Notes under the pieces: generated by a model
What the model was told of the DNA's origin: nothing
Seen by the model: the letters and a program-made list of their open reading frames with translations, nothing else
The model's database searches: none
NCBI GenBank assembly: GCA_021432655.1
Contig: MU271417.1
Span: 27,849 to 69,045, forward strand
Origin: Atractiella rhizophila
Lineage: Eukaryota
DNA: 41,197 nucleotides
Direction: 5' to 3'
Shown here: piece by piece, positions 2,032 through 26,383 of the stretch
Numbering within the stretch: the stretch's first letter is position 1
How the letters are laid out: each line of letters opens with the position of its first letter
Program-made: the position numbers and the translations under genes

Positions 2032-5000
2032 AGTGAAAGAAGAGGTGCCGTTGGTAGGAGAAGAACCGACACTCCAATCACATCCCTCCCTGCTACCGCG
2101 TCAAGGACGAAGTAGTGAAAGGTGTTAAAAAACACCGAGAACTTCACAACCTAGATGTTACCGAAGGAATTCAAGGAACTGACTGCAGCCTAACAGCACC
2201 TCGTTCACTTGTAGTCCAAGGGGGAAGCAACATAGGAGCCTCTGGTAAAAGAACAGACATCTCTGTTTCCATAACTCTCCCCTACACGAAGCTGCTGGCT
2301 GTCTACTGACGCAAACCCACCAGGGATTTAGCAAGTCCAGGGACCTTAGAACCACCTTCAATAGGCGCAGCGGACGACTACCGCTATCGCTCCCAACGCA
2401 GTTTTGACCCCTAAGCGGTCAGTCTAAACTCCTACCGTCTACTTACAGCCATAACTCTCGCCTTGGTAGGTGGACCAGACACTATCTCTGCATCTGCAGA
2501 AACAGAAGGCAACCACTACCGTAGCGTTGAAGTCGAAGAAGGGTGTACTATCCGGGTTCCAACCGACTCACGCGGAAGAGCTCTAGCCGCCCTCGCTGAC
2601 TCTGCAGCAAGAGTTTGCCTCAGGGTAGTTAGCAGAGTCCGCCTCCGTTGTGGACGTTCGCGCCATTCGTGCTACTCCGACTGCGACCTCCTTCGTAGTT
2701 TGGAGTTAGAAAGGAAGGGAGGTATACAGGTAAGGGTGTTAAAAGAAGTCTTGACGCTCATGAAGTAGAAGGTGGGTCGAGAGGTCGGTCAGGAGAAGGG
2801 GTGGTTCGGGTTGTCGCAAGGGAGGAGGCAGAGTAAGCGGCCGGGTTCGAGGAAATGTACTTTAGGGACATGATCAAGTAGTTGTAAGTGTTCCCTTGTA
2901 GCTCCTTGATTCTTATTCATTCCTCCTGCTAGTCCCAATTAAGAACTCCCTTAGCGCTAAAACTGCATCTTCGTCACCCTAGACCATTAAGCGTACAAAC
3001 CAAGCATGGCTTACTATTGAACGAGCCTTGAGCCGCCGACCTGTTGACGAACAAACTATACGAGTAGGAGGACTAAGACTGCACTACGAGGTAGAAGCCG
3101 CTCATTTGGCAATCTTCACCGGACCGCTGAGTCGTGACCTCGAAGGCTTCCTCACACGTGCTGAAGTTAGTCACCTCATCAATGACCACGACGTCCCCGT
3201 CTTCGCGGCACCACTACGTTCGCCCCAGCATACTTCGACCTCTGGCTAAACTGCTCACATCCTTTCGATCCGGAAAGACCCTCACCTGCGCGGTTGAGCG
3301 AACGATCTCGGAGAGGTAGCCATCACAAGAGAAATCTGTCGTTAAATCGGCGTCACCTTCACAAAGGGGCGAACTTGAAACCGGCAAACGCACCAGCCCA
3401 TAGAAGTAGTAACTGACTTAGGCTTAGAAGAAGACGAACCCAGCCAAAGGTGCATAGTAGAGGGAAGCGAAAAGCAGCGGAAAAGGGGGATCGTAACTGA
3501 TAAAATAGGAGATGTCCATCGAGCAGATGAAAAAACTCAAAAAAGCAAAACCGACGAGCACGGAGGAGACGAAGTAGGCAGCTCGAGAGGAGAGGTCGAA
3601 GTCCAGCTATACAATCTAGGACGGAAAATCCAGCTGGAAACGCAAACTGGACGCCAGGGAATAAACTTGGACCCCTACTACGAAGATATCGGCTAAGAAG
3701 GACAAGTGGAACGGCTCCAACCCTATGCGATCTCAATCTCCTCCTTCGAAAGCTGCCACCTTGCAGTCGCGCCGATCGTCTTCCACAACCACTTCCATGC
3801 AATAAACTAACCAGGAGGAGCCAGAAGCGAAAGTGCCTAAAAGAAGGTACTACTCCTTGTCGAGACGAGAAAGCTGGAGAGCTTCGAGCACGATTTGTAG
3901 TTAGTCTTGATAGAAGCAGTCGTGCTCGTTTGTGTATGTGCACGATCGGCAAAAAGAGAAATTGCTATAGACTCGGAGCGGGCAAAGTAGCAGCTGGTTC
4001 AGTCGTTAGACAGGAAAGAACGGAGCTGAACCATAAAAGCAGTGGCGGCGCCGTTGACACCTCCACCTCCTACACCTACCTCTCGGTCCCCGTTGTAGAT
4101 GTTCGTTTCTGCCGACACCGCACCTTCCTAACGAGCGCAGAAAAAAACGGACTCTGGAGCAGTATGCTGGTCCTGACTGGCCTTCCTCAAGCAATACGCA
4201 CAGTACTTTTTGTGAAAAAGCTCTCGCAGACCTCCAGAAGCGACATCCTGAATCACGTAAGCATCATTGACTCCACTACCTAAGGTCACTAGAAAGGTGT
4301 TACTGTCTACACAAACAACTTGGTCCATTTCCAACCTGACTTCTGTTTAGGAGGAAGCCTTGAAGGAGGTGCCGAAGTCCTCAGCTTCCTCGAAGTTGCT
4401 GGTTGACTTGAAGGCCGTCGAGTTGCGTACTTCCTCATCCTAGGAATTACTGCCAGCTAGCACCCCTAAACCATCGGCCGTCTAAACTACCCCGCTCACG
4501 TCCAAGTCGCGGACGTCGTTGTTGATGGTGTCCTACGCCATCTAGTGGGCACTAACGACCGAGCTTTAGCTGTAGGTAGCGATTTGGTCTTGGGCATGAT
4601 CAACTCTAAAGTTGCTGACCATTCCCGTTGAGTAGCCAGCACACAGCTCTCCTCAAGAGGCGGCGGAGACGAAGACGTCGTTAGCCCTCTGGTCTACTTC
4701 GACCCTGAAGCTGTTACCCAGCTCCATGTAGGAGGCACCAGTTTTCTCCACAGGCCTCAGGGACCAGTCGTAGGTTGGGTCTACCTTCCCGTTGGAGTTT
4801 TTTCCAACTCGACATAGTACTCAGCACTCAAAGCTTCTATCAAGAAGGAGAGGTCGCGGTCCATCAGGGCAAGATTGACGAGAGCGGCGTCCATGGAGAG
4901 GACGGAGATGAAGCGGTAACCGGGGAAGAAGTATGAGATGATGTCGACTAACACTTGACTATTCGAGCTGTTGTCCAACTCCTTGAAGGAGGCATTACTG

Positions 5001-6540
5001 TCTATGATACCAAAGTAGCCCGACACAACAGCTTAGTCGCCATCTCCCGCATCAGTTTCCAAGTACGTTGGGCGAAAGTTGTAGAACAACTTACCTAACA
5101 AGCTACCGTCCGCATCCAACAAAGTCTAATGGCAAGCGCGGCCGCTAAGGAAGAAGCGACCGACTTATGACCAACCCGCGAACCAGAAGGAAGGGAAGGA
5201 CCTGGTTTCCTTGTAGAACCCTAGAGAGGCAACGGAGTCCCCGGCTGTCTCAACCTCATGCGTTGACAAGTCCATCGTTTAGACCGCACTCCAGCTGTAA
5301 ACTTGGCAGTCGTTATCAGCTCCGTGCGAGAAATAGGGGAGGGAGGCGAAGTAGAGGTTGGAGAAGGTGGTGCAGAACTTGTTATTGTCAAAGTAGGACA
5401 AGGAGAACTTGTCCCGCCTGCCAGAAGCTTTCTTCCACTCTCACTCTATGCAGCATCTAGCCATGACGCAAACTGTCCTCTTCCCCACCAGCCAAGTAGG
5501 TGGAGGTCGAGGTTCACACTCACACTCTGAAACTGACCCCACCAGCCAAGGAGGAGTCCACGTTCCACTCTGCCGCACTGCTTACGAAGGAGAAGGTTAT
5601 CGACGTTTCCTGGCCTCTAAGCAAGAAGGTGAAAGGGGTAGAGGTGTAGAGGGAGAAGGGGAGGGCTGAGATGTAAGCCGGACTTGGGAAGAGATCGTAG
5701 GCATAGACGCGGCTACGGTCGACTTCGTAGTTACAGGCGCTTGACCGGCATCCAGTAGGGAGGGCTGCACACGTGGTTTCTCTTCAGGAGTTGGAGGTGA
5801 CTTTTAAGTCGGTAAGGTCGACATAGCTCCCTTAAATACATTAGGAGGTGGAGAACTAATTTGGCCGATCATAGGTAGTGTAGTATGGAACGACAACGTC
5901 ACTGTCACAGCAGCCATCCAGCTTGAAGCCTCCTCCGAACCAAAGGGTCCGACAGTTATTAGAAGACCTATAGCCGTCCCGAGTACGGCAACGGCCTAGC
6001 AGTTTGCTCCTCCCTTCGCTTAGTTACTTGAGCAGGTTTAAGCCATGTACCTCGTACAGGTCTAGGACCTCTAAGCAGAGGTAGGGGAGCAATGGGAGGA
6101 CAATATACATTAATCGGAGAAAAAGAAGTTTATTTTAGTTAACTACGTACACCTTTCTGCTTGGACGCGCCGAACTTCTTCGTTGACGTAGGGCAGTGAA
6201 GAAGAGGTCGGAGATAAGCGCAGAGGAGTTGGAGGTAGAGAGGGAGAGCGGATGAGGAGCAGCAGGGAGGATAAGAAGAGAGAGAGATTGAGGAGGTTGA
6301 GGGAGAGGTTGACGAGGTAGGGGAGGAGGTTTGAGTTGAGGAGGGTGATCACGAGGAGGTGGATTAGGGTAACTAGAAAGTGAGAGCTAGGTAGGAGAGG
6401 GAGCAGGGTTAGGAGGTTAAGCAGGAGGAGGGGTGAGAGTGGCCGTAGAAGAGGAGGAAGTTGTCGTCGAGAGCGGGAAGAGAGTTTAAGGAGATTTTAG
6501 TTTGCAACCGGCTAGGTATAGGAGGTATAGGAGGTAGCAC
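2032..6540. CDS. Large acidic, low-complexity hypothetical protein (5' end missing); read right-to-left without complementing
   Basis: Reverse reading gives long open stretches such as SGNGMSPADIQKIIDSLGNQ..., ...IIRYEPNMRITRSHCFYVKIAIPSRINPDRPPYLFLVPRCSL... and the C-terminus ...QPRRGWLPWRRK* (stop 2034-2032). Canonical introns near 6163-6099 and 2702-2653. Several apparent single-base frameshifts. Not every segment was translated. Confidence 0.75.
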
Positions 6541-6583
6541 TTGACTGATGAAACAGGTACGCATCTTATGGAGTGATCCGCAC

Positions 6584-7389
6584 CACAAGCTGTCCTTCTT
6601 TTCGATTTTGTTTCCAAGGTTGGATTTGCAAAAGCATGGCTGGTGGATGCGACGATAGGGATGGGCACGTTCACGTATGGATCCACCGAAAGCGATGGTT
6701 GGGACGGAGATGGTAATGCCGACGCTGTCTCAAAACTGCAGTGTTGCTGGCGATCAACGCATCTATTGCAAGGCGTACCATCGTTGATTTGTTTGCCGGG
6801 AGGCAGAGCGCACTTAACTCTGCGTTTGTTGCAGTAGTCTGTTGTACATTAGCTCATTGATTTCTGGGAGGGAAGAACGTACAACATGTCCTCTGCGGCA
6901 TGACTCTTCTCTTTATTTCTTGAGTTGAGCTTTGTGGTATGGGGGGAGGCACAAAGTATGTCATCGCCGTCACGTATGTCAAAGCATCACCGCTTGGCAC
7001 TCCTTCTTCCACTCGTGACGACGATAGATAAGTTGCCGTGTTAACCATGTTGTCCAGTCTATCCAAAGCTGCAGCAGTAGGAAAGCTGAACGGGCTGTGG
7101 CTTGATGAAGAGGGCCAAGTGCCTTCATCGATGGCAGAGACATCAACGCTTCTACCGCTGTATGTGCATTGCAGACCCCTGCTTGTGCACCTCACGCATT
7201 TTGGAGAGCCTTTAGAGTCAAAGCAGCGGGTCGTGTCAACCTTGCATTGATCTTTCTCAACGGTGGTCAGCAAGGACAATATACATGAATCTAGGACTTG
7301 CCACATCGGCGATTGTCGCTTGGATTAGGAGGGTTTCTCTCTCTCCTCTTCCGATTCCTGTGTCGCCCTCGCTGCGAAGACCGTCCCAT
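6584..7389 (-). CDS. Zn(II)2Cys6 protein with three tandem binuclear clusters (exons 1-3; exon 4 lies in block A); about 408 aa
   Basis: Exons 7389-7302, 7251-6883, 6838-6584, then complement of 883-1397. Clusters: CDQCKVDTTRC-x8-CVRCTSRGLQC; CYYCNKRRVKC-x13-CNRCVDRQQHC; CDLCHNKKRKC-x13-CVTC-x8-C. Each intron is phase 1 just after the first Cys; the first is GC-AG. Confidence 0.88.
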
Positions 7390-9205: not shown

Positions 9206-12144
9206 ATGTCAGAGGCGCTAGGGTCTACAATACCCGCTCTCGAACGACACGCTGTGTCCGTGAGCTTGCCAACATGGAAAGATGTGGTTGACTATGAGCT
9301 GGGGGAGAAGAGGGTGATCGGGAGCATGAACAGTGGGTATCCGAGGTTTTTTTGGCATCAGGATGTTCAAAAGGTGTGTCTTTCTTGTTGTGAGGAGAAT
9401 AAGTGGATTGGGAAGTGTAATGAGCCTCTGTATTCTGTGTCGGCGGAGTCACAATGCTGCATGCTTTATTTGTGTTGCCAGGTTCCTTGAGGTTGCAAAT
9501 ATTGAATACGTGTCGATATATATTTATTTGGATCAAAAACGGTTGAAAGAGGCTCTTTAGGAGTCCCTTCCTCCGTCAATCCTGCAAACTTAGTCCGTGA
9601 GCTATGTTTTGGGCATATTTCTATACTCATGTTTTAAATCAGGGGGGAAATGTGGTAACATGACTTATTTTAACCGCGAATAAGCGTATCCCTTTCTTAC
9701 ACTAAGCTAGGAAATGGCACAACTTCTTTATCGTATTTCGACGTTTAGATCAAAAGGGGTTGTACGTAGTTGACAATGATTCAGTTATCTATCCCGTCTT
9801 TTGACCATCGTGCTCGGATTATTTCACTTGTAGCGTATCGATTTGAGATTCCTTCGTTGGTTCTCACTATCATTTAGTTCCCATGCAATCATCTCATCCA
9901 AGAATAATGTGGTTATCTTGCATCTGCTCTCGAAAAATCAGTGGTTGTGATGACTTTTCGTGTCCTTAAGTAAGGCTATCAATGTAGCTTTTCTCCATCC
10001 GTGAGATTCTTTGTCGCCATTTTAGTGCGCTGGCCAGGCCAGATAAGGCGATTAGCGCATCCCATTATTTGCTGCCAACTTCGCACGAGTTTTCTCTGAA
10101 ATTGAGGGCCACCGAATGTGTTACCAATCGTCGTAACTTTCGTGACATGAAGTTCTGCTAGCGGGTTTGTTTTTTGGTACATTTTCTCCCGACACTATCC
10201 CTCAATACCTCATACTGTTCGTGCTGTCCAGTCATTTGCGCTGCCACAAGAAAAGCTTCGGATCTTCGCTATGATTCGCAATCGCATTCTGCCACCACCC
10301 TGTTATATGGGACACAAAAACTGACTTACTCCTCTCACGTTTGGGTTGATAGTTATGCCGCATCATCGAAACCGAATACGGTTCTCAAAATCATTCAGAA
10401 CGCTGTATATTATTCCCAATTGGCTCCTCAGTGGAAGAATGTCTCAACTTCCTCTCCTCCCGCACTCCTCCCGTCAAAAGTCGATCGCTCCCAATCGACA
10501 TCGAGAAACGCATCCGGCTCTACGCAGTCTTTGTAGCCGAGGACGATTTTGGAAGGATCAAAGAGTTCTGGCAGCACACTGGGGAAGGGATCAGCAGTCG
10601 GTTCGCTGCCAGGTGCCTCAAACTTCTGAAGGACAAGGAGGAGGCGACGGGCAAAGAACGGAGAAGATCCCAAGACACGCCTTCGTCCCCAACGTCGACC
10701 GCGTCCCGCTCTTGGAAGAGCAGATACCAGAATAAAGCGATTTCGCCAATCTTCACCCCTTCACCCCCAACCTCTCCCACGACCTCGTCTCCCGTCCTTC
10801 AATCCAAATCAACACAGGAGGAACTAGACGAAGATGCGGATTTTTATGTGGAGGAGCGATACGGAAGGAATCTACCCACGAATCTAGGGGAGGAGGCGAA
10901 GCTCACGGTGCGCAAGCGGATAGCAGGTGTATTGGGTGATCAGCTTGAAGAAACGAGCCTTCGGAATGGTTTGACCGAGGACGATGTATACTTGTATCCG
11001 ACGGGCATGACTGCTATCTTCAGAGCCCACGTCATGGTGAGAGAAGAACGGAGGGCGAAAGGGAAAGAGGACGCAAAGAGTGTAGTTTTCGGGTACGGGT
11101 TTCTCACATTTGTCACTTAAGCGAACAGTCCTCATTGTGCCTTGTCTTCCTTCCTTCCCCAGGTTCGTCTACGGTGATACTCTAAAGCTTATGGAAAAGT
11201 TTGGACCCGGATGTCACTTTTTCCCATCGGGCCAGGAGGAAGACCTCAATGCTCTCGAGAGGTTATGCGAGAAGGAAGAAATTGTCGCTCTCTATTGCGA
11301 ATTCCCATCGAATCCTCTACTCAAGTCATCTGATCTGCGGCGCCTAAGGGAGCTGGCGGATCGGTTCGGATTTGCCCTCGTCGTCGATGATACCGTCGGC
11401 AACTTTTGGAACATCGATGTCCTGTCGATGGCGGACGTCGTTGTTAGTTCCCTCACAAAGATCTTTAGTGGAGACTGCAACGTCATGGGTGGAAGGTGCG
11501 ATTAACCTACCTCACTGAATGTGCAGTCGACGCTGACTCCATTACACAACAGCCTGATATTGAATCCAACCTCACAACTGTACGGCACGCTGAAGAGGAG
11601 TATCGAGGCCACATATACTGATGCCTATTTCTCCGAGGATGCTATATATATGGAACGCAACTCACGGGACTTCATCAAACGAATCAAGAAGATCAATAGG
11701 AACGCCGAGATGTTATGCGACTTCTTTGAGTCCTCCCGCCTTCATCCTCGCACCCAAAAGCAGGTGATCAAACTAGTCTCCTACCCAAAATTCGCCACGC
11801 CACAAAACTATGCGCGTTGTCTACGTAATCAATCTACAAGCGAGGAAAACTCGACGGTGGACAAGCCTGGATACGGTGGCCTCTTCTCGCTTACTTTCAT
11901 GTCAGTGAACGCGGCAGCGGCATTCTACGACAACATGCCATTCTCAAAGGGACCGTCGCTCGGAACCAACTTCACTCTCGCCTGTCCTTATACGGTTTTG
12001 GTACACTTCAACGAGCTGGAATGGGCAAAGAACTACGGAGTCGAGCTGGCGTTGGTCAGGGTTAGTGTGGGGATGGAAGATGAGGCGACACTTAGAAATG
12101 GCTTTGAGAAGGCTCTGAAAGCCGCAGAGGAAGCAGCGGAATAG
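9206..12144 (+). CDS. STR2: Cystathionine gamma-synthase (fungal Str2/Met-7 type, PLP-dependent)
   Basis: Exons 9206-9373, 10353-11092, 11163-11495, 11553-12144. Motifs: [55 protein letters not shown]-lysine [32 protein letters not shown]. Confidence 0.93.
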
Positions 12145-12536
12145 AGGGAAGACAATAGTTTGCTTCAAATTATATATCTGTATTTCTCATGACCACACAG
12201 TATCAATACTTGCAACATAGTAGCAACACCAGCACCACAATATCAAGGTCATGTGATTTCTTAACTTTGTTTGTGCCTTCTGTGCAAACAAGATCCATTT
12301 TCCGCAGCACCACCTAACCAACTTCAAGAAGCCTGAAGTCTTGACGCTCATCGTTTCCCTTTTCTCTAGCGAAGAAATCGATAGACTCCCCTGAAACACA
12401 CGAATCACAAACGTTCGCCAGCAACTTCACAACTTATAATTACCTCGGTTTGTCCATTCGCTGGTGGGAAAGAGTGCTGACAGTGCGGTAAGCGTGAGCG
12501 GTAACGAAATACAATACTTAAAGTTGTATCGCCGCT

Positions 12537-14662
12537 ATGGCGAACGATTCAACACAAATATTAGATGAACCTGGAAAGGATGTTCTGGATCCAACACCGC
12601 TGGATCCGCTTCTGGGAGGAGCAGCGGTGGCCTCTCCTCCACCTGAAATTCCCTGTGGTGTGCCTTTTCTGAATCCCCTAACAGAGCTGGAGTATTAACC
12701 TACATAACGCAGATGAATGTAAACTGCAAAACGTGCGCCACCTTTGTTCCTGGTTCCTTCTTTCTTCACACAACTACAGAAACCGTGCCGCTCGGTGGAA
12801 GGAATCTGCGAACTCTGTGCATCCTATAATCAAGCATGCACGTATGCCTGAGTCTGCTACTACTAGTTCCGCTTCGTACTTATGAGACACAGATTTAGTG
12901 CTGAATCGGTTGACCCAGCAGCCGCTGATGTTGGTCCTCCAGCTGAAGCCGAAGCAGAGATAGCGCCTTCATCTTTGAAAGGAACCAACACACGCTGTGG
13001 TATGCTTTTCGTTTCCAATTCGTTACCTAGAGCTGAAGAGACAATTTATTTACAAATAGTGCACTGCAAGAACTTTGGCGTGCGTGGTCGCCACCCTCCT
13101 GCTATATTGCCAATATTGGTGTTGAGAGAGGGCTCCAGGCGAAATGCAAGCCTAACGATCCGGCAAATCCTAACGGGCAATGTCGACGGTGTACGCAGCA
13201 AAAATTGGAATGCTTGTAAGCACGTTGCCATTTGGGTTGATTGACCATTGATGGATATGTAGGAGAGCCCCAAAAGATGGTCGGTATTACCGTTGGCACC
13301 CTGATGCGAACGCCATACCGCAAGAGTCGTGCGCTATTTTGCTCTTCTATTTTTGAAAGTAATGATGACGATGTGTTGGATGGTACAGGTTGGAGAGCGG
13401 AGGAAAGAGGATCCGATCTTCTGTGGCCTGCAGTAAGCCTCTAACTTGCTTTTCCGAAGGACATGAACTCAAAGCTTCTTTAGCACACTGCAAAACAGCT
13501 AAGGTCGGAAACCCCTAGTCGACCGAGCTGAATATAACTGACTGATTGATCAGCGAAAATGCGAAATGGTACCAGAGCAAGGAGCTTGCACGAATTGCCT
13601 CCGTACGGGAGCTGAATGCGTGTTGGTCCTCTCCTTTTTAACGTTGCTCCGAGTGATGTGCCGTTTAGTGTTGCCCCTACCTTTGGGCGATGGAAACGCT
13701 GGCATCCTGGTAGTCCGCCGCCCGGGGCGAAGAGGGTTAGAAATGGCGAAGCCGTTGCAAACTCGCCCGACGTGGTCATGGCTTTAGCTTCGGTGCTGGG
13801 CACCGGCCCAGGAAGCGAGACAGAAGGCAACGCGTCAAATTCAAACCATTATCCCGACTTCGAAGCCTCACACCTCCATCCATCTGGAGTAGAGGCTGAG
13901 ACTGAGGGCGTTTCCCTTCCTCGCGCGGATGAAAAGCCGGTTCATGCAGCACAACAAGAAAGTCAGGAAGATCCGAAAAATCATGATGAAGAAGACTTCT
14001 CGTTTGTGTATCAACGACAATCTTACACCCAACCGGAACTCCATCCTCAACCGCAGCATTCGGCAGCGCAGGGAGATAATGTTCCCATGAAGAGTCCACA
14101 TCCTCCTCCCACTCAGGTATCATTCGTCAATTATACCGCCAATCTCGCAATGGGGAAACCGATGTTCAGATCTATCTCCGCCGGCGCAAAGAACGCCTAT
14201 TCCACAAACTGTGGTTTGTCTCCGCCCTTCATTCCTTGTGGTTACGATTGCTGAACATGATGCTCATTGAGTAGACTACTGCAAGCGTCGAAAGGTTGGT
14301 TGCTTGTTCATTTTCTGCAGAGGGTTTAAGGCTCGAACGGAAAACAGAAAAAATGCGATCGATCCCCTGAATTGAATGGAGGTTGCGAAGGATGTCGAAA
14401 GGCAGGCTTGGTCTGCATGTGCGTCGTTTGGTTTCTCTACCCATCTTTGCTCAACGAATGGTGGGAGAGCAGAACAACTCCAAAGACCACAAGGAAACAG
14501 CTCGTCGCACAGATGCAGAAGAGGGAAGTAGCCCCCCAGCAGATGCCTATGGCGCCTGATCCAGAAGAGGTGGATGTCAGTAACGTCCCTATCCAAGACG
14601 ACTTAGACATCCCAGTCGATCCGATATTCTCTGCTTCATTGGCTATGACTTCCGCTGAATAG
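12537..14662 (+). CDS. Zn(II)2Cys6 protein with four tandem binuclear clusters (14 exons, four 20-nt micro-exons)
   Basis: Exons 12537-12657, 12713-12732, 12780-12841, 12893-12999, 13060-13079, 13139-13215, 13263-13328, 13389-13432, 13484-13503, 13554-13621, 13669-14213, 14275-14294, 14348-14418, 14473-14662; all introns GT-AG. Splicing yields four Cx2Cx6Cx6-11Cx2Cx6C motifs. Confidence 0.88.
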
Positions 14663-15549
14663 TGAGTCGCTTGAGAGCTGTGTGATTGATGTTGGACTGA
14701 ATGACCACTCAGATATCTCCTAATCTTCCATGTTCTGAACCTTTTTTGATCGCTGGAAGTATCACTTTGCAATTTTTTGAGTTTTTAGTTCTCTCAAATC
14801 TGTCAAATATCGAAAATATTCAATTGTGACCATGACTTGCTTTCTTTCATTGAGATATTAATTCAACATCAAAGGGATTTGAAACTATCAATGAGACCGT
14901 ACGTATCGCTCTGAAGGAATCACTTGATTTTGTAGACCGTCCGCAAGATTGGACAAAGCAATATCTTCTCCTCTTGACTCCCGGTAGATTATTCCTTTAG
15001 AACCCTGACTCAAAATTTCAAAATAATCGTCCTAGTCTAACGCTGAAGCTCTATCTTGCGACATATTTAGCGAATATATGCGATCTGTGAGCAATACCCT
15101 ACGAGATGGGTCAGTACACATGCTTGCAGGCCATAAACAATGGCTTTTTCTGAAGATATCGGACGCTCAATTAAATCTCCTCTCCTGTTTCCTTGTTTTG
15201 CGTTGTTGGGATTGCCCAAGAGCTTGACATGACTCAACAAAGTGGACAGTTTGCGTTCGGACCTTTATTTTAGGTTAAATTGTTGCAAACAAAGACAACA
15301 GCTTTCTTCCCTTCTTTCCCTTCAACGCCTCTCCGATTAGCATCTCGAACCTCCCTGACCAAGCGGATCATAGCAAACCGCTTCACTTCGCGATATTCTA
15401 ATATCTACATCATCTGTAAATCCCTTGACGATTTGATCTGCGTAATTCTTTTCGCATTTTGCAGTTGACAATATTCCCACCAGTACGTATTCCTCTCACC
15501 TTGTTGCAGTAGTATAGACATCTTGCGAACTCAGTTTGAACCAGGTACT

Positions 15550-17283
15550 ATGGCTACTCCAACCGCTGCAACATCAACAGCAGCAGTATCAGAGGAGATA
15601 CCTGCCTCTGTCCACGACACGCCTCCGACGAGCGAGAGGGATGCAGACGCCACCTATCTTACATACAGCGTATCAGAAAGCGCTTCGACCTATCCTCGTA
15701 ACCCAGGACCGACGAAGAGAAAATACAAAGCTAGAAACTCGACTCGAAAGAGCTGTGGTTTGTCTCTTTGTCATGCATCGCTCTCGTCGCTTCCTGATTC
15801 CTTGTTCCATGTGACATTAGAATCTTGCTTCGAAAGCAGGAAGAAGTGTGTCCTAGGAGTTCACAATCCCATTTGTGATTCTTGTTTCCGTCACAAGCGG
15901 ACTTGCATCTTCTCTCGCCCACCGCCATCGCTCCATCTCGAGCCTGGAAACCCTCGGCCTGTTGAAGGGACAACTTTCGGACTCGCGCTTGTCTACTTTC
16001 TCATCCAATTTCACCTTCAGCGTCCTGATAGAGAGGTCGTCATACAATCCCTCCAACAGGTGGCGGAGGAGCACAATTTCGGTTGGAGAGTTCCAGAAGG
16101 AGTGAATGAGAAAGTGCTTATAGACAACCTTCCGTTACTGTTGCATGAGGGGAAGGTCATCGATGTTTGGAAGCTATTGAACGTAGAGGATTTGGCATCT
16201 GCTAAGACGATCGAAGGTCGTGAAAGGCGGGAAGAAGGGATGGAAGGATTGAACGAACAAGTTAAATCACAGGACGACTTCAACAGCACTCAAGAATCGC
16301 AGAATGAGGACGTGCAGGTGGAAGTCGACCCTGAGCTTGTCGATCAGACGCCATCTATACCAGTGGATCCTCATTCTTATTCATCTGGAAACGGTAGTCG
16401 TTCTCACTCCTCTTCTTCATCAAGGCACCAACGTCACATACAGGACTCCCTTCTCCTGCAGCCGCATCTGAACCCATACTCGATCCCTCCCACTCCATCG
16501 GCACCAGTTCTCTCTCCGAACGAAAGGCCCGAAAACGATCATCTGCTCCCCGCAACGAAAAGCGTATCAATTCACCCCCAAGGCAAAAGCGGCGTCGTAT
16601 CTCCCCACAGCACCCATCTCCCGATGGGGACAGGTACATTGCAACATCCCCGCCCACAGTCAGCAATCCGAAACCAAAGTCATCCTCAAGCACGACTGCA
16701 ACCGCCCCACGCGAATCCTTCGCTCGTACCCACGACCACAATCACTCGAGGGAGGGCTCCTAGCCTTCCGCAGTCGCTTTCCTCCACCTCTCTTTCCACA
16801 GATCCACCCTCACTTCCACAACATGTCTCTCAAGGTGACGCTTCTCCATCGACCACCATGTTCGAGGCACCTCATCCACTTTCTCCTCCCCCATCGGAGG
16901 TCTTCGGGCTCAAATTCACCCCTCCAAAAACCGAGACTTTTCAACGCACACATTACCCTTCTTTTCAGTCCGAATTCATGCCTCACCCCAATGACGACAA
17001 GAAGGATGGTCGACCTTCTAAACGCCTCAAAGTGGATTCTGCTCATGGCCGCGAGACGTACCAGCAGGGTCCTGACCATCACCCACTTCCTCCTCCTTCT
17101 CCTCGGCAGCGCACTAATCATCTCCACCTGTCTCCCATATCTCACCAACTGCAGAGCGCAATCAGAGATCACGGGTCTTACTCACATACCGAAGAAACAG
17201 GAAATGATATTCCTGTACAATTGCCCCCGCTCGGAGATGTCGAAGAAGGTGGGAGGAAGAGACGGTGGAATGAAGATAGATGA
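15550..17283 (+). CDS. Zn(II)2Cys6 protein with a single cluster and a long Pro/Ser/His-rich C-terminus
   Basis: ATG at 15550. Removing the 63-nt in-frame intron 15758-15820 (gtttgt...gtgacattag) gives RKSCESCFESRKKCVLGVHNPICDSCFRHKRTC. Confidence 0.85.
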   Translation: MATPTAATSTAAVSEEIPASVHDTPPTSERDADATYLTYSVSESASTYPRNPGPTKRKYKARNSTRKSCGLSLCHASLSSLPDSLFHVTLESCFESRKKCVLGVHNPICDSCFRHKRTCIFSRPPPSLHLEPGNPRPVEGTTFGLALVYFLIQFHLQRPDREVVIQSLQQVAEEHNFGWRVPEGVNEKVLIDNLPLLLHEGKVIDVWKLLNVEDLASAKTIEGRERREEGMEGLNEQVKSQDDFNSTQESQNEDVQVEVDPELVDQTPSIPVDPHSYSSGNGSRSHSSSSSRHQRHIQDSLLLQPHLNPYSIPPTPSAPVLSPNERPENDHLLPATKSVSIHPQGKSGVVSPHSTHLPMGTGTLQHPRPQSAIRNQSHPQARLQPPHANPSLVPTTTITRGRAPSLPQSLSSTSLSTDPPSLPQHVSQGDASPSTTMFEAPHPLSPPPSEVFGLKFTPPKTETFQRTHYPSFQSEFMPHPNDDKKDGRPSKRLKVDSAHGRETYQQGPDHHPLPPPSPRQRTNHLHLSPISHQLQSAIRDHGSYSHTEETGNDIPVQLPPLGDVEEGGRKRRWNEDR

Positions 17284-19055: not shown

Positions 19056-20874
19056 ATGCTTCTTCTCTCCGTCGCTCTCACCCTCCTGCCATTCTCACTC
19101 TCTCTTCCCATCCCTGTGCCCAAACATGGGCACGTAAAGAGGATCGCACAGGTTATTTCGGATGCGACGAAAGATTGGGAACAGGCTTGTGTACGTCTTG
19201 CTCAGTGTTCCGTGAAAATTGTTATGTGCCACTGACGGTGGTGAGGGACAGTTAACAGCAGGCGGAGGACAACAATGTAATCCTCTCTCTCAAACCGCGT
19301 TCAGCTCGCTCCTAGCTGCTGGGGACAAGTGCGCGCAACAAAATGCCGGTTCGTTTTTACCTCTCCTCTCATCTACATTTACTGATATCACTGGACAGCC
19401 GACGACATGGTCTCACTTGCAAAGACGCTCAATAACGACAGTGAGATGATCCGTCTTGCCCAACTCTTCGTACAGCAACCACGTAACGCTCCCGATTCGC
19501 TTCAAGTACCCTACTGCAACAAAGCGCCGGAAAATGTTGAGCTCGACGGTCTATTCCATTGCCAATTCGCTGGTAGCGACTTCACCAAGTTTTCTGGAGA
19601 TCAGACTGCCAATGTCCCATTGGGAGTGAGCACCGTGAACCCACCTGGAAGCTGTCCTGCAAATCTAGATGATCCCGTGAGTCCCTCGTTCCATTCTGTT
19701 CGGTAACAGGAGGAAGAGCCGGTCTTGATGGGCAATTTTGTTGTGTGCCTGCAGGTTCCTGATGGCGTTCAGCTTAATACGATTACATCCGATCCTGGAG
19801 TCGCTAACGCGAGTACCAGTGGCACAGTCGCTGATACTGGCGTTGGGAAAGCCGATACCAGTGCTTCTGATGCCGGAGACGATGACGAGGACTGCGTCGA
19901 CAAAGATGAGGGCAACGGAACGGCATGTTACCTCCACTTTCTATTAGTGATGATGCTAATTTATTGGCGTAGGATACCGATACCTCCGCCACAACATCGT
20001 CCACCCCCGCTCCAGTTTCCACTTCGGCTACATCCACGGGAGCCGTAGCGTCTGGCGGATCAGTCCAAGCTCGTGCGTTCCTATCCCCTTCTGCTTCACA
20101 CTCAGTCTTATTCTCCTCCCAGAAAATGCGGCTGATGCTCAGAAGCTGAACGTCCAATTTGCCACTTTAACCAGTGCTTCCACTTGTGATCCTAATGTAC
20201 AAGCGGCCGCGTGCGTAAACGGAGCCTTCGCCCAATGTGTCGGCTCTTCATTCGTCGTTTCCTCAGCTTGCTCAGCTGGAACGGAATGCTTCGCGCTTCC
20301 CCTTGTGAACTCGAGGGGAACTAGTGTAACTTGTACTACCCAAGGGGATGCCCAGCGGAGATTTGACGCTGCTGGAGTTACTGGTGGTCCCCTGGGACAG
20401 GGATCCACGACTTCTACCGGTATAAAAGTGGCTGACGAGAGTAATACTGCTGCAGCCAACTCCTCGCCTCCCCCTACGACAGCAGGGAGCACTGCCACGC
20501 CCGCTGTCACCTCTGAAGGAGAAGCATCCACCACGACAGGGTCCCCCAGCGGCACACCATTCCAAGCGCGTATGTTGCTCCTCCATCGTTCATCGATAGC
20601 ACCTGAAAAGTATGATGTGGCAGAAAACAAGCTCGATGCTCAGGCCCTCAACACTAAATTCGCTTCTCTTACCACTTCCTCAACCTGCGACACTGCAACT
20701 CTCGCCAACGCCTGTGTAGGTGGCGCTTTCGCCCAATGTGTCGGAACCAATTTCGTCACGACACCTTGCACAGGTGGGACTTCCTGCTTCGCCTTGCCTC
20801 TTGTCAACAAGGCCGGAACGAGCGTAACTTGCACCACGGAGACAGATGCGAGGAGTAGGGGAGGGCTCGCTTAA
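19056..20874 (+). CDS. Secreted Cys-rich protein with Ser/Thr-rich linkers and two C-terminal CBM19-like repeats
   Basis: Hydrophobic N-terminus MLLLSVALTLLPFSLSLP and a KR dibasic site, then a Cys-rich domain (WEQAC..QCNP..DKCAQQNA..QQPRNAPDSLQVPYC..LFHCQF). Two repeats of the form DAQxLNxxFAxLT..C..ACVxGAFAQCVGxxFV..C..GTxCFALPLVNxxGTSVTCTT at about 20123-20370 and 20624-20850. The CBM19 label is from recalled family resemblance. Confidence 0.8.
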
Positions 20875-21120: not shown

Positions 21121-22685
21121 TTAATGAAAGCCTGGAGGTCGAGAACGATCGAGATAGGTCACGTGCTCGCATTCAGAAACGACAATTTTCCTGCCTTGAT
21201 CTCTCAGCAGCTCGATCCTTTTCAGAAGATCTGCGCCAGACTCGATAATTCCAATTCGTATCCCTTTGCAACATTCGCGCAAGGTGAATTCGTGAGAACG
21301 AAACAAGGATGGTAAGAAGGACCCACCAAAGTAATCACTTTGCTTCCATACGAATGTTAGTCTTGTTTCTACGACTTTGACATCAGCAACGGCTCTGTTG
21401 GTAGCCAAATATGGAACGTACTCAACGTATCCGTATCACAAGGGAGCATCCAAACTTCCCCTGCCGCCGCTCTCTTGTTCTCCAATGGAAAGTCCAGGGC
21501 AACGGATTCCGAAGGTGGGAGATCGATCCAGAAATCGCTGCAATTCGCATCACTACCGCACTCTTTCGTGCTTGGAACAATAGCTCACCAACCAACCAAC
21601 ATTTGGATGGCCGGCACACCCAACAGTCGGTTTAAGCGGATGAGTCCTCGGATATGTTTCTGCATCAAGTACTCAGATGAACTTCAGGAGGATTAGATGA
21701 AGCAAACCATAATTGCTGGACCGTTGTCATCCTGCTACTGCATCAGTCTTTTTAACACCGAAACAAATAAACTTGCAAGTTTGACAATCATATCTCCAAT
21801 TGGCATTTTCTCCACAGCAGTGTCGAAACCAAACCTGATCCTCGATCCAGGGCCAATGATGGATCCCATGTATTGTGCCGGGCGAGAGAAACTCGACGTC
21901 CTGCCTGGACGTTCTCCGTAAGTTCCATGGGGAGCAGCTTTTTGACTGTTCAATCGTTCCTCTTCTTGGCCTCCAGGATAGGGTCGAGTAGAAGCAGAGC
22001 GAGGTGGCACGGATCCGTTGCCCGCTCGATTGGGGTAAAAGGACGTAAGAGGAGGGCTCGGAGGATAGTCGTATGCCCCGGTGGTCGGGCTTGGTCGGGA
22101 AACGGACGGTCGACGAGGATTTTCGAGCAGGAACTGGATCGATGAAAGAGTGGATTTGAGATCTCCTACGTCTGAATGAACTGATTCCAGTGTTTTACGC
22201 AAAGAATGGATCTCTTCTCCTTGCGCTCCTAGCTTCGTCTCAAGAGCTTCGATGCGCCTCGCAAAGTCCACAGTCGGCAACTTCACCGAGGAAGCTGCTG
22301 CCTCCTTTTTCGCCAGTGTGTCCAACTTCTTCAAGGAGTCCCCCTGCTTCTCGTGAATATCCTTCTGCCAAGCTTGGATAGCCTTCAGCTCCTCTCCCGC
22401 TTCATCGAATCGGTAGGCGACCTTGTTATCTAAATTCTCCATTTCGCGATCTAGCAAGTTCTCCAATTCACCAAACTTGTGCTCTATTGTCTGCTCCATC
22501 CTAGACAGTTGCGCATGCGTGAATTCGGATAGAGCAGTAGCTAGATCCACCTCTTGTTGCATCCCTTCACTCGTCCCTTGTTGATAGGTCTCCTCATATT
22601 GTGCCGTCATGTATCGACCGCCACCACCTGTATCGTTGTATCTTGGATCCCACTGTGTCTGACCCATCGACGACGGAATCGACAT
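21121..22685 (-). CDS. Hypothetical protein with N-terminal coiled-coil region (complete copy)
   Basis: 316-aa ORF 22685-21735 with a heptad-like charged helical region. Downstream exon-like segments (MQKHIRGLIRLNRLLG, DFWIDLPPSE, ..GGSFLPSLF..PPGFH*) end at TAA 21123-21121. The 3' exon boundaries are approximate. Confidence 0.65.
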
Positions 22686-23038
22686 GGATTACGAACAAAT
22701 ATCAATGAAACAAAACAAACTTGACTGGTTAACGTCGAATTGAGAAATAGAAATGATCGGGGCAGACACGCGGACAAAAGCCCAAAACGAAGCTGTACGT
22801 ACTTCCTCCGCCTATTCACGATTCTCAGGATGAAATCCCTTTAATTTGTTGTTTAAACATTGTCAACTTTTTGTGGTTAGACACTCAGTAAAGAGAAAAG
22901 TAGCGATTATTTTCTAGACGATGCGAGAGCTAATTTCTAAATGCCATCATTTGCTACATGTGGTAAAGTGTTTCTACGTGCAGTTTATGATTTTTAAGCC
23001 AGTATTCCCTTAAATCAAAATCCAGATCCCAGATCCTC

Positions 23039-23837
<799 letters not shown>

Positions 23838-23977
23838 CGGGAGAGCAGCGGAGCGTCGTGGATAGCAGGTCGATGAAGATCACGTGAACCGGTTTGGCGG
23901 AGTTGTTGACCCCTGTTGTGACTTGACACAAGCACCAATCTGCAAGGAGTGAGTAGAGTAGAGTAGGGTAGTGGGAA

Positions 23978-24266
23978 ATGGGAGTATGTAGACCTGTCTG
24001 TGTGCAGTAAAGAATGAACTGACTTGAAAATAGGTCAAAGGGCTGTGGCCGTACATTGATTCTAGCTTTAGTTATGAAACAGACAATTTGAGGCTTTCTG
24101 ATATCGCGTCGTCAGAGTATAAGAAGAGTGGTACAAAGCTAAGGATTGGATTTGGTACAGCTCTCATGTAAATATTCTGTGAGATGAGCTCAAATCTTTC
24201 TGGAGATAGACGCCAGCGTCCTGCTCATCGCCTACCGATATGTCAAGGCTTCCCAGAAAGAGTGAG
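23978..24266 (+). pseudogene. 5' fragment of the XPG-family gene, truncated at the duplication junction
   Basis: ATG GGA|intron|VKGLWPYID...LRIGF|DASVLL, the same structure as 26384-26672. It breaks at the next splice donor (24262-24266). Confidence 0.8.
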
Positions 24267-25092: not shown

Positions 25093-25445
25093 GGATTACG
25101 AACAAATATCAATGAAACAAAACAAACTTGACTGGTTAACGTCGAATTGAGAAATAGAAATGATCGGGGCAGACACGCGGACAAAAGCCCAAAACGAAGC
25201 TGTACGTACTTCCTCTCCCTATTCACGATTCTCAGGATGAAATCCCTTTAATTTGTTGTTTAAGCATTGCCAACTTTTTGTGGTTAGACACTCAGTAAAG
25301 AGAAAAGTGGCGATTATTTCTAGACGATGCGAGAGATAATTTCTAAATGCCATCATTTGCTACATGTGGTAAAGTGTTTCTAAGTGCAATTTATGATTTT
25401 TTAGGCCAGTATTCCCTTAAATCAAAATCCAGATCCCAGATCCTC

Positions 25446-26244
<799 letters not shown>

Positions 26245-26383
26245 CGGGAGAGCAGCAGAGCGTCGTGGATCGCAGGTCGATGAAGATCACGTGAACCGGT
26301 TTGGCGGAGTTGTTGACCCTGTTGTGACTTAACACAAGCACCAATCTGCAAGGAGTGAGTATAGTAGAGTAGAGTAGTGGGAA

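What the first reader, a model, noticed from the sequence alone, without database searches (positions are those of the whole stretch)
12537..14662. Four tandem Zn(II)2Cys6 clusters in one protein, each built from the same three-intron module with a 20-nt micro-exon
Seen: splicing gives CDECKLQNKPC-x6-CELC-x6-C, CVHCKNFGAKC-x11-CRRC-x6-C, CTHCKTAKRKC-x8-CTNC-x6-C and CDYCKRRKKKC-x9-CEGC-x6-C. Every cluster has a phase-1 intron after Cys1, an exactly 20-nt exon (12713-12732, 13060-13079, 13484-13503, 14275-14294), a phase-0 intron two codons before Cys3, and a phase-2 intron after Cys6. Clusters 2 and 3 are each followed by AP..GR..RWHP. No coiled-coil or fungal TF middle-homology domain is evident. 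Established: Gal4-family factors usually have one cluster and often bind DNA as dimers. Inference: exon-module duplication produced a poly-cluster reader, analogous to C2H2 finger arrays, with different recognition loops (KLQNKP, KNFGAK, KTAKRK, KRRKKK). Skipping micro-exons or whole modules could alter its activity.
Basis: partly seen in the sequence, partly recalled or inferred. Interest (0 to 1): 0.8.

Follow-up and report, generated by a model that had tools for sequence, protein, structure and literature searches.

The report
Four-zinc-cluster fungal regulator with micro-exons
A root-associated fungus makes a small protein carrying four Gal4-type zinc clusters instead of the usual one, each cluster encoded by the same exon pattern with a 20-base exon; the gene and its splicing are real, but what the protein does is untested.

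Summary
Window 12305-14854 (+) is one transcribed gene of Atractiella rhizophila (NCBI KAH8920486.1, "hypothetical protein"). Transcript contigs list 10 of the 13 coding junctions as GT..AG joints. The other 3 follow from contig-length arithmetic and one loose end. The contigs add a 5'UTR intron and an intron inside the stop codon.

The 476-aa product has four CX2CX6CX6-11CX2CX6C clusters, which hold all 24 of its cysteines. Each cluster is cut at the same three places (phases 1, 0, 2), which gives four 20-nt exons.

- Clusters 3 and 4 are solid; clusters 1 and 2 together score below Pfam's cut-off, and cluster 1 is acidic.
- Duplication is shown only for units 2 and 3, through linker similarity (0 of 2000 shuffles).
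- The phase-1 intron after Cys1 also occurs in the four other clusters of the window, so it is a family trait.
- No full-length relative was found among 1.84 billion representatives. Other hits carry two or three clusters, none four.

Most likely this is an atypical Gal4-family DNA-binding regulator in which clusters joined in one chain replace dimerisation. I class it as a new variant of a known kind, interest 0.45.

The parts
12305..12447 (+). 5'UTR exon (5' end not mapped; the contig starts at 12305)
   Evidence: X7 record 9 covers 12305-12446, and the joint is at 12446/7. The 187 nt of spliced 5'UTR hold no ATG.
12448..12492 (+). 5'UTR intron, 45 nt, GTTTGT..AAG
   Evidence: Joint 12446->12492 (cut +1) in X7; ends checked.
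12493..12657 (+). Exon with the start codon (ATG 12537-12539). It ends 1 nt after Cys1 of cluster 1 (TGT 12654-12656).
12658..12712 (+). Intron 1, 55 nt, phase 1, right after Cys1 of cluster 1
   Evidence: Joint in X7 and X5.
12713..12732 (+). Micro-exon 1, 20 nt (x2, Cys2 and four residues)
12733..12779 (+). Intron 2, 47 nt, phase 0, two codons before Cys3
   Evidence: Joint in X7. It is retained in one X5 contig of depth 2.
12780..12841 (+). Exon 3: Cys3-Cys6 of cluster 1
12842..12892 (+). Intron 3, 51 nt, phase 2, after Cys6
   Evidence: Joint 12841->12893 in X7. The NCBI model uses acceptor 12898 instead.
12893..12999 (+). Exon 4: acidic 35-aa linker and Cys1 of cluster 2
13000..13059 (+). 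Intron 4, 60 nt, phase 1
   Evidence: Joint in X7 and X1.
13060..13079 (+). Micro-exon 2, 20 nt
13080..13138 (+). Intron 5, 59 nt, phase 0
   Evidence: Joint in X7 and X1.
13139..13215 (+). Exon 6: Cys3-Cys6 of cluster 2 (11-residue loop)
13216..13262 (+). Intron 6, 47 nt, phase 2
   Evidence: Joint in X7.
13263..13328 (+). Exon 7: AP..GR..RWHP extension of cluster 2
13329..13388 (+). Intron 7, 60 nt, phase 2, donor GTGCGC; the one intron outside the module pattern
   Evidence: Joint 13328->13389 in X7.
13389..13432 (+). Exon 8: basic GGKRIR..VA lead-in and Cys1 of cluster 3
   Evidence: X1's loose end equals 13418-13432.
13433..13483 (+). Intron 8, 51 nt, phase 1
   Evidence: Not listed as a joint. 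Shown by X1 record 2 (loose end plus micro-exon) and by the length of X7 record 9.
13484..13503 (+). Micro-exon 3, 20 nt
13504..13553 (+). Intron 9, 50 nt, phase 0
   Evidence: Not listed as a joint. Shown by the arithmetic of X1 record 2 and X7 record 9.
13554..13621 (+). Exon 10: Cys3-Cys6 of cluster 3 (best Pfam stretch)
13622..13668 (+). Intron 10, 47 nt, phase 2
   Evidence: Joint in X7 and X1.
13669..14213 (+). Exon 11: AP..GR..RWHP extension of cluster 3, a 181-aa low-complexity slightly acidic linker, and Cys1 of cluster 4
14214..14274 (+). Intron 11, 61 nt, phase 1
   Evidence: Joint in X7, X1 and X6.
14275..14294 (+). Micro-exon 4, 20 nt
   Evidence: X6 record 8 covers 14274-14294.
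14295..14347 (+). Intron 12, 53 nt, phase 0
   Evidence: Not listed as a joint. Shown by the arithmetic of X1 record 4 and X7 record 11.
14348..14418 (+). Exon 13: Cys3-Cys6 of cluster 4 (the most Gal4-like)
14419..14472 (+). Intron 13, 54 nt, phase 2
   Evidence: Joint 14418->14473 in X7 and X1.
14473..14661 (+). Exon 14: Gal4-like linker, short helix, acidic tail, and the first two bases of the stop codon
14662..14712 (+). Intron inside the stop codon, 51 nt, GTGAGT..CAG. Unspliced the codon reads TAG; spliced it reads TAA.
   Evidence: Joint 14661->14713 in X7.
14713..14854 (+). Last exon: third base of the stop codon and the 3'UTR (3' end not mapped)
   Evidence: X7 record 11 covers 14713-14854.

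Best explanation
SHOWN.
- This is one expressed gene of Atractiella rhizophila with 16 exons.
- Its 476-aa product carries four Zn(II)2Cys6-pattern clusters (residues 40-67, 103-135, 172-201 and 383-413 of the RNA-supported protein) and no other known domain.
- Every cluster is encoded the same way. Cys1 ends an exon (phase-1 intron). A 20-nt exon then carries x2-Cys2-x4 (phase-0 intron). A third exon carries x2-Cys3 to Cys6 (phase-2 intron).

INFERRED.
- It is an atypical Gal4-family DNA-binding regulator.
- Clusters 3 and 4, and probably 2, each read a CGG-like triplet on their own. This is the way the monomeric factors Pho7 and AlcR do it.
- The basic GR..RWHP segment behind clusters 2 and 3 gives extra backbone or groove contacts.
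- The flexible linkers tie the clusters into one chain. The chain itself then supplies the multivalency that ordinary Gal4-type factors get from a coiled-coil dimer.
- The slightly acidic 181-aa linker and the acidic tail act as activation regions.
- Cluster 1 is acidic and the weakest match. It is probably not a DNA reader.

ORIGIN (inferred).
- The stretches between successive phase-1 introns are 189, 207 and 633 nt, all multiples of 3.
- Unequal exchange in these introns therefore adds or removes whole clusters in frame.
- This is demonstrable for units 2 and 3. It is older, or unproven, for clusters 1 and 4.
For: Gene and splicing:.

Selection on the frame:
- 8 of 9 distinct coding differences between the window and the transcript contigs of X7, X1 and X6 are synonymous. 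This includes sites in the 'disordered' linker and the tail.

Family:
- PF00172 scores 52.9 bits against a cut-off of 21, with 3 stretches.
- All 24 Cys lie in the four motifs.
- A home-made profile from 15 clusters of other proteins scores the four clusters 1.8, 21.2, 40.4 and 26.7 bits.

Fold (AlphaFold2 with a 9-row alignment):
- All four clusters show the same two short helices, starting after Cys1 and after Cys4.
- pLDDT is 58-68 for cluster 1, 76-92 for cluster 2, 95-97 for cluster 3 and 73-87 for cluster 4.
- The best 23 of 28 Foldseek rows are solved Zn2Cys6 DNA-binding domains, with Pho7 first (E 0.05, prob 0.98).
- Cluster 3 superposes on Lac9 at 1.4 A over 33 residues and on Gal4 at 2.4 A over 39.

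Base-contact position:
- The residue equivalent to Gal4 Lys18 is the fourth after Cys2. It is Lys, His or Asn in solved factors (PMC6265462, passages read).
- Here it is K in clusters 3 and 4, N in cluster 1 (as in Pho7) and G in cluster 2.

Charge:
- Clusters 2-4 have pI 8.3-9.1.
- The linker after cluster 2 has pI 10.0.
- The tail has pI 4.3.

Monomeric binding by Zn2Cys6 domains without a coiled coil is established for Pho7 and AlcR (PMC6265462).

Duplication:
- Linker 2 against linker 3 scores 57, with 0 of 2000 shuffles reaching it.
- All three unit lengths are multiples of 3.
- A same-genome paralogue with one cluster carries the same GRWKRWHP motif (P0002).
Against: - There is no DNA-binding, localisation or phenotype evidence of any kind.
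- Clusters 1 and 2 alone are below Pfam's cut-off (15.4 against 21 bits).
- Cluster 2 has Gly at the Lys18 position. Cluster 1 and both of its flanks are acidic.
- The four clusters are no more alike than unrelated clusters (2.8 of 16 positions both ways), and there are no DNA repeats. For clusters 1 and 4, duplication rests on intron positions only.
- One of those positions, phase 1 after Cys1, is shared by the 4 other clusters read in the window.
- The model's helix 419-430 after cluster 4 aligns with the cluster-plus-dimerisation part of Hap1, Leu3 and Put3. The Z values are low, 3.7-4.0, so a dimer is not excluded.
- All fold matches have Z below 5 and Foldseek E above 0.001. Clusters 1 and 2 were not reached by the fold search.
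- No orthologue exists to test conservation of the architecture.
- One X5 contig retains intron 2. One X1 contig lacks one base at 14588, which would shift the tail's frame if real (depth 5).
Confidence: 0.6

Rival explanations
1. It is a conventional dimeric Gal4-type factor with relic clusters. Only cluster 4 (perhaps also 3) binds DNA. The short helix after cluster 4 dimerises the protein as in Gal4, Hap1 and Leu3. The N-terminal clusters are degenerate zinc modules with a structural or protein-binding role, or none.
For: - Cluster 4 with its linker aligns to Gal4, including the ..PKT.R.. linker.
- Model residues 371-440 align with cluster, linker and start of the coiled coil of Hap1, Leu3 and Put3 (Z 3.7-4.0).
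- The model has helix 419-430 at pLDDT about 70.
- Clusters 1 and 2 are sub-threshold in Pfam. Cluster 1 is acidic, and cluster 2 has Gly at the Lys18 position.
Against: - The helix is only 12 residues long and is followed by Pro.
- Cluster 3 is the best match of all four (40.4 bits; pLDDT 95-97) and has no helix behind it.
- Clusters 2 and 3 keep a conserved basic extension.
- 8 of 9 coding variants are synonymous, which argues against free decay, although none of the nine lies in clusters 1 or 2.
Confidence: 0.22
2. It is not an activator. It is a small zinc-cluster protein that competes for CGG sites, or binds partner zinc-cluster factors, and so acts as a decoy or repressor. Alternatively it has a zinc-handling role unrelated to DNA.
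For: - There is no middle-homology or other effector domain.
- About 58% of the model is below pLDDT 50 (277 of 474 residues).
- The neighbouring Zn-cluster genes also lack further Pfam domains.
Against: - The linker and tail are acidic with hydrophobic residues, as in activation regions. This is weak evidence.
- The cysteine spacing is exactly that of DNA-binding clusters, and the Lys18-equivalent is kept in clusters 3 and 4.
- I know of no precedent for a Zn2Cys6 zinc-storage protein (recalled, not searched).
Confidence: 0.13
3. It is an annotation or assembly artefact: several genes merged, or a pseudogene whose 'exons' are chance open stretches.
For: - One X5 contig retains intron 2.
- The NCBI model differs from the RNA at two acceptors.
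Against: - Transcript contigs join all exons in one frame, from 12305 to 14854, with overlapping records 9, 10 and 11.
- Spliced pieces occur in 4 runs of 4 laid.
- 0 of 20000 shuffles give a motif.
- Coding variants show a synonymous excess.
Confidence: 0.02

Closest known systems
Gal4-type Zn(II)2Cys6 transcription factors (Gal4, Lac9, Hap1, Leu3, Put3, Ppr1; Pfam PF00172)
   Same: Six-cysteine spacing; a PF00172 match; the two-helix cluster fold in the model, with superposition on Lac9 and Gal4; Lys at the Lys18-equivalent position in clusters 3 and 4; a Gal4-like linker after cluster 4.
   Different: There are four clusters in one chain instead of one. There is no middle-homology domain. 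There is no clear coiled coil. Clusters are spread along the chain, not only at the N-terminus. Clusters 1 and 2 are divergent.
Monomeric Zn2Cys6 binders Pho7 (S. pombe) and AlcR (A. nidulans)
   Same: There is no dimerisation coiled coil behind clusters 1-3. Pho7 is the top Foldseek row. Cluster 1 has Asn at the Lys18 position, as Pho7 does. In Pho7 a basic Gly/Arg/aromatic segment behind the cluster lies in the minor groove (PMC6265462, passages). The GR..RWHP segment here has a similar make-up.
   Different: No sequence-level match to Pho7 at E<=1. Pho7 and AlcR have one cluster each. The role of GR..RWHP is inferred only.
Two-cluster Zn2Cys6 proteins: Bhr1 of Dichomitus squalens and PoZCP55 of Pleurotus ostreatus
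   Same: They have more than one PF00172 domain in one basidiomycete protein, placed away from the N-terminus. Bhr1 is a proven activator (PMC13532241 and PMC7295025, passages read).
   Different: Those proteins have two clusters plus septin-like NTPase domains. Here there are four clusters and no PF00735. No sequence relationship was found.
Other multi-cluster proteins found here: P0003 (Calocera viscosa, 2 clusters), P0004 (2), P0009 (Aplanochytrium, 2), P0007/P0011 (metagenome, 3)
   Same: Tandem Zn2Cys6 clusters in one chain.
   Different: At most three clusters. Their clusters are much more alike within one protein (7-12 of 16 positions) than the four here (2.8 of 16). Gene structures are unknown. 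They are similar to the query only within the clusters.
20-nt micro-exon switch in Trichoderma virens Xlr2
   Same: A 20-nt exon lies inside the Zn2Cys6-coding region of a fungal regulator. Leaving it out destroys the DNA-binding domain (PMC11121469, passages read).
   Different: The Xlr2 micro-exon encodes the Cys4-Cys5 part. Here the micro-exon encodes Cys2. Xlr2 has one micro-exon and this gene has four. Regulated inclusion is shown for Xlr2 and not tested here.
C2H2 zinc-finger arrays
   Same: Repeated small zinc modules in one chain, possibly grown by duplication.
   Different: C2H2 fingers are joined by short conserved linkers (about 7 residues; recalled) and read contiguous triplets. 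Here the linkers are 35, 36 and 181 aa, so contiguous reading is unlikely.

Membership tests
Zn(II)2Cys6 binuclear cluster family (PF00172) | Six cysteines spaced CX2CX6CX5-12CX2CX6-8C | tested here: met
   Four matches, at residues 40-67, 101-133, 170-199 and 381-411 of P0001. All 24 Cys are used, and 0 of 20000 shuffles match.
Zn(II)2Cys6 binuclear cluster family (PF00172) | Profile match above Pfam's gathering score | tested here: met
   The whole protein scores 52.9 bits against 21, with 3 stretches. Clusters 1 and 2 alone score 15.4 bits, below the cut-off, with 2 stretches. Membership is therefore firm for clusters 3 and 4 and only pattern-level for clusters 1 and 2.
Zn(II)2Cys6 binuclear cluster family (PF00172) | Two-helix cluster fold binding two Zn | tested here: inconclusive
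   The AlphaFold2 model shows the two helices in all four clusters. Clusters 3 and 4 align to solved domains at Z 3.2-4.6 and rmsd 1.4-4.0 A. Clusters 1 and 2 were not reached by the fold search. Zinc binding cannot be tested here.
Zn(II)2Cys6 binuclear cluster family (PF00172) | Base-contacting residue at the Gal4 Lys18 position (Lys, His or Asn in solved factors) | tested here: met
   K in clusters 3 and 4, N in cluster 1, but G in cluster 2. The rule is taken from PMC6265462.
Canonical Gal4-type factor (cluster + linker + coiled coil + middle-homology region) | Fungal_trans / middle-homology domain (PF04082, PF11951) | tested here: not met
   No Pfam family other than PF00172, even at E<=10.
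Canonical Gal4-type factor (cluster + linker + coiled coil + middle-homology region) | Coiled-coil dimerisation element behind the cluster | tested here: inconclusive
   The model has no helix behind clusters 1-3. It has a 12-residue helix, 419-430, behind cluster 4. That part aligns with the dimeric domains of Hap1, Leu3 and Put3 at Z of 4.0 or less.
Canonical Gal4-type factor (cluster + linker + coiled coil + middle-homology region) | Sequence-specific binding to CGG triplets | not testable with these tools
   Needs DAP-seq, PBM or EMSA.
Bhr1/PoZCP55-type two-cluster regulators | Septin-like P-loop NTPase domains (PF00735) before the clusters | tested here: not met
   No PF00735 at E<=10.
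Micro-exon splicing switch of the Xlr2 type | Exon of 30 nt or less inside the Zn2Cys6-coding region | tested here: met
   Four 20-nt exons, all present in transcript contigs.
Micro-exon splicing switch of the Xlr2 type | Condition-dependent inclusion of the micro-exon | not testable with these tools
   Only assembled contigs were available, and they drop rare forms. The one irregular form seen is intron-2 retention in one X5 contig.

The most novel reading that the evidence does not exclude
Atractiella has a lineage-specific family of poly-Zn2Cys6 proteins in which the phase-1 intron directly after Cys1 serves as a module joint. Each stretch between two such introns is a whole number of codons. 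Unequal exchange or exon shuffling there can therefore add, remove or swap complete clusters in frame, each with its downstream extension. The result is single-chain readers with one to four clusters that recognise composite arrays of CGG-like sites without dimerising. The frame-shifting 20-nt exons could give each cluster its own splicing-dependent off switch. This 41-kb window alone holds three Zn-cluster genes with 4, up to 3, and 1 clusters. Every one of the eight clusters has that intron.
Probability: 0.15. Interest if true: 0.7.

Novelty: new variant of a known kind. Interest (0 to 1): 0.45.

Why it matters
Zn2Cys6 factors are the largest family of fungal regulators. The textbook picture is one N-terminal cluster, a coiled-coil dimer and two CGG half-sites.

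A confirmed, expressed protein with four clusters and nothing else shows that the cluster can be used as a repeatable module. It gives a natural test case for whether tethering in one chain can replace dimerisation, and for how spacing and specificity are set then.

The gene structure is a clean example of symmetric-phase exon units that allow in-frame domain gain. It also has four constitutively spliced 20-nt exons in one fungal gene, which most gene finders would miss. The JGI/NCBI model got them right but misplaced two acceptors.

The practical value is modest. The organism is little studied, the protein is an orphan, and no function is known.

Tried and rejected
- Whole genome: none is held for this window. 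I could not map intron positions in the other Zn2Cys6 genes of Atractiella, nor check the gene structure of paralogue P0002.
- Related DNA in metagenomes: two scans, with P0001 and with exon 11, gave 22 and 118 pattern matches. None was a relative by tblastn.
- Census of many-cluster proteins: a search with the cluster of P0006 among longer proteins collected 1 candidate and scored none. I therefore have no systematic count of proteins with three or more clusters.
- ESM Atlas: only generic Zn_clus clusters, at scores 0.81-0.83 (below the 0.9 bar) and TM 0.20-0.22.
- AlphaFold2 without an alignment: mean pLDDT 39.1, unusable.
- Foldseek against the PDB: no row at E<=0.001.
- Complex prediction on two copies of residues 372-474: verdict 'no answer' (score 0.00 against a mark of 0.32). 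It is neither for nor against dimerisation.
- Direct repeats in 12300-14900: only 14-17-nt chance-like pairs.
- Rfam on 12000-15200: no match, so no known RNA gene sits in the introns.
- Pfam on 34 ORF pieces around the gene: only a Cys/Met PLP enzyme upstream (11086-12144), weak XPG/GEN1, and sub-threshold coiled-coil-type hits. No pathway context emerged.
- A fifth cluster-like stretch at 19163-19222 (+) lacks a readable Cys1-Cys2 part. I dropped it as probable chance.
- Earlier notes of this scan: none on this genome or on look-alike sequence.
- Literature: six word searches found no paper on a protein with more than two Zn2Cys6 clusters. Subscription journals and the InterPro architecture tables were not searchable. 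From memory, InterPro lists multi-copy IPR001138 architectures, so such proteins are probably catalogued though not discussed.
Full report
WHAT IS THERE.

It gives one open frame with 13 GT..AG introns of 47-61 nt. Their phases run 1,0,2 / 1,0,2 / 2 / 1,0,2 / 1,0,2. The four exons 12713-12732, 13060-13079, 13484-13503 and 14275-14294 are each 20 nt.

The largest exon found its database twin at 100% identity: P0001, 474 aa, NCBI KAH8920486.1, 'hypothetical protein BT69DRAFT_1336374' of Atractiella rhizophila, a basidiomycete of the Pucciniomycotina. The annotated protein has the same 14 coding exons. It differs only at two acceptors, 12898 instead of 12893 and 14473 instead of my first choice 14470.

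TRANSCRIPTS.

One search for sequencing runs gave seven coded runs. I laid four of them.

- Run X7 has contigs 99+% identical to the window. It lists as GT..AG joints 10 of the 13 coding introns (1-7, 10, 11, 13). It also lists a 45-nt intron in the 5'UTR (12448-12492) and a 51-nt intron that begins inside the stop codon (14662-14712).
- Five of these joints recur in the root metatranscriptome X1, one in the soil metatranscriptome X5 and one in X6.
- Introns 8, 9 and 12 flank micro-exons 3 and 4 and are not listed as joints. X7 record 9 has exactly 296 letters between window 12998 and 13669, which equals exons 5-10 plus one ambiguous base. X7 record 11 has exactly 92 letters between 14212 and 14473, which equals 1+20+71.
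- X1 record 2 begins with 15 letters that equal window 13418-13432, the end of exon 8. These are followed by micro-exon 3 and exon 10.

So all 13 junctions are supported. Overlapping records 9, 10 and 11 tie the gene together from 12305 to 14854.

The RNA uses acceptors 12893 and 14473, which gives 476 aa. Spliced, the stop codon reads TAA. Unspliced, it reads TAG.

There are two irregularities. One X5 contig (depth 2) has intron 1 removed but intron 2 retained. One X1 contig lacks a base at 14588 (depth 5).

Eight of nine distinct coding differences between the window and the contigs are synonymous. This fits a frame under purifying selection.

THE PROTEIN.

All 24 cysteines lie in four CX2CX6CX6-11CX2CX6C motifs. 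None of 20000 shuffles produces even one motif.

Pfam finds only PF00172 (52.9 bits, cut-off 21), with three stretches rather than four, and no other family at E<=10. The first 169 residues, which hold clusters 1 and 2, reach only 15.4 bits. A profile built from 15 clusters of other proteins scores the four clusters 1.8, 21.2, 40.4 and 26.7 bits.

Cluster 1 and its flanks are acidic (pI 4.9 and 4.1). Clusters 2-4 are basic (pI 8.3-9.1). The linkers are 35, 36 and 181 aa, and the 63-aa tail has pI 4.3.

The residue that makes the side-chain base contact in Gal4 is Lys18. It is Lys, His or Asn in other solved factors (PMC6265462, passages). Here it is N, G, K and K in clusters 1-4.

AlphaFold2 without an alignment failed. 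With a 9-row alignment (A1) all four clusters show the same two short helices. pLDDT is 58-68, 76-92, 95-97 and 73-87 for clusters 1-4. A 12-residue helix follows cluster 4.

Foldseek's best 23 of 28 rows are solved Zn2Cys6 DNA-binding domains, with Pho7 first. None reaches E<=0.001. VIA-align places them on cluster 3 (Lac9 1.4 A over 33 residues; Gal4 2.4 A over 39) and on 371-440 (Hap1, Leu3, Put3). All have Z below 5, and clusters 1 and 2 were not reached.

RELATIVES.

HMMER read 1.84 billion representatives and found 10 proteins at E<=0.001, self included. No protein resembles P0001 outside the clusters.

The best hit is a same-genome paralogue with one cluster followed by the same GRWKRWHP motif (P0002). 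Of the nine non-self hits, four carry two or three clusters and none carries four. They are Calocera viscosa, Aplanochytrium and two unnamed sources. This list favours multi-cluster proteins, because scores add up over domains.

ORIGIN.

There are no DNA repeats in the gene. The four clusters share on average 2.8 of 16 non-Cys positions with each other and 2.8 of 16 with clusters of other proteins. The clusters within P0004, P0007 and P0003 share 7-12 of 16. So there is no sequence sign of recent duplication.

The linkers after clusters 2 and 3 are clearly related (AP..GR..RWHP ... G-[GA]-KR-[IV]-R). They score 57 against 19.1+-3.9 for shuffles, with 0 of 2000 reaching it. The other five linker pairs are not related.

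The stretches between successive phase-1 introns are 189, 207 and 633 nt, all multiples of 3. Exchange within these introns therefore keeps the frame.

THE NEIGHBOURHOOD.

The neighbourhood changes the picture. The window holds two more Zn-cluster genes.

- On the minus strand, from an ATG at 7389 to 6584, lie two full clusters and the Cys1 of a third.
- On the plus strand, 15550-17283 encodes 556 aa with one cluster and no other Pfam domain.

In all four of these clusters a phase-1 intron follows Cys1 directly. Two of these introns are backed by NCBI protein P0013. Two are inferred from the frame, one of them with a GC donor.

The three of these clusters that can be assessed lack the phase-0 and phase-2 introns. 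So the first intron position is a family trait. Only the other two positions are special to the four modules.

The exact 20-nt length follows from the positions and is not a separate coincidence.

HOW IT PROBABLY WORKS.

It is most likely a Gal4-family DNA-binding regulator of unusual build (confidence 0.6). Clusters 3, 4 and probably 2 each read a CGG-like site as monomeric Pho7 and AlcR do. The basic GR..RWHP extension adds contacts. The chain replaces the dimer. The acidic regions activate. Cluster 1 is probably not a reader.

The main rival (0.22) is a conventional dimer through the helix after cluster 4, with the N-terminal clusters as relics. A decoy or non-DNA role gets 0.13. An artefact gets 0.02.

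Skipping any micro-exon would shift the frame, giving products of 56-390 aa. No skipped form was seen, but contigs cannot show rare forms.

WHAT IS KNOWN.

All of the following rests on passages read, not whole papers.

- Two-cluster proteins are described: Bhr1 of Dichomitus squalens and PoZCP55 of Pleurotus ostreatus, both with septin-like domains (PMC13532241, PMC7295025).
- A regulated 20-nt micro-exon inside a Zn2Cys6 domain is described for Trichoderma virens Xlr2, at another place in the domain (PMC11121469).

Six searches found no paper on more than two clusters. Supplements were not consulted.

Earlier notes of this scan report 2-nt and 6-nt exons inside Zn2Cys6 motifs of Naegleria on other DNA. 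I did not check them.

VERDICT.

This is a new variant of a known kind, interest 0.45.

Noticed in passing
window 7389-6584, minus strand: A second multi-cluster Zn2Cys6 gene. There is an ATG at 7389. Cluster A has Cys1 at 7305-7303, followed by a putative GC-AG phase-1 intron (7301-7252). Cluster B has Cys1 at 6886-6884, with its intron at 6882-6839. The Cys1 of a third cluster is at 6587-6585, followed by GT.

NCBI protein P0013 (BT69DRAFT_1336370, 293 aa) starts only after cluster A. It splices out the Cys4-Cys6 half of cluster B as a 54-nt intron (6778-6725), and it differs from the window at 2 of 55 aligned residues.
   Followed up: partly
window 1-6583: Residues 123-293 of P0013 (the rest of its third cluster and its tail) are encoded nowhere in the window (tblastn). 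Beyond 6584 the minus strand runs into C/T-rich low-complexity sequence; GC skew is 0.35 over 6001-7000. Either the window's copy is a truncated paralogue of the P0013 gene, or the assemblies differ here.
   Followed up: partly
window 15550-17283, plus strand: A third Zn-cluster gene directly downstream. It has two exons and encodes 556 aa with one cluster. A phase-1 intron (15758-15820) follows Cys1, and its donor context (TGTG|GTTTGTCTC) is the same as that of intron 11 of the target gene. Pfam finds no other domain.
   Followed up: partly
window 14660-14713: The stop codon of the target gene is split by an intron. It reads TAG unspliced and TAA spliced, so the protein end is the same either way.
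   Followed up: yes
window 12733-12779: One soil-metatranscriptome contig (X5, depth 2) has intron 1 spliced but intron 2 retained, with a 3-nt deletion in the intron. It could be pre-mRNA or slow splicing next to the micro-exon.
   Followed up: partly
window 21735-26616: A tandem duplication with a period of about 2.4 kb. The ORFs 21735-22685 and 24232-25092 (minus strand) are 274/275 identical over the aligned part. They give only sub-threshold coiled-coil-type Pfam hits.
   Followed up: partly
window 30001-31000: A sharp drop in G+C to 0.28, against about 0.5 elsewhere. Not examined.
   Followed up: no
window 11086-12144, plus strand: The upstream neighbour is a Cys/Met-metabolism PLP-dependent enzyme gene (PF01053), ending 393 nt before the target's start codon.
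   Followed up: partly
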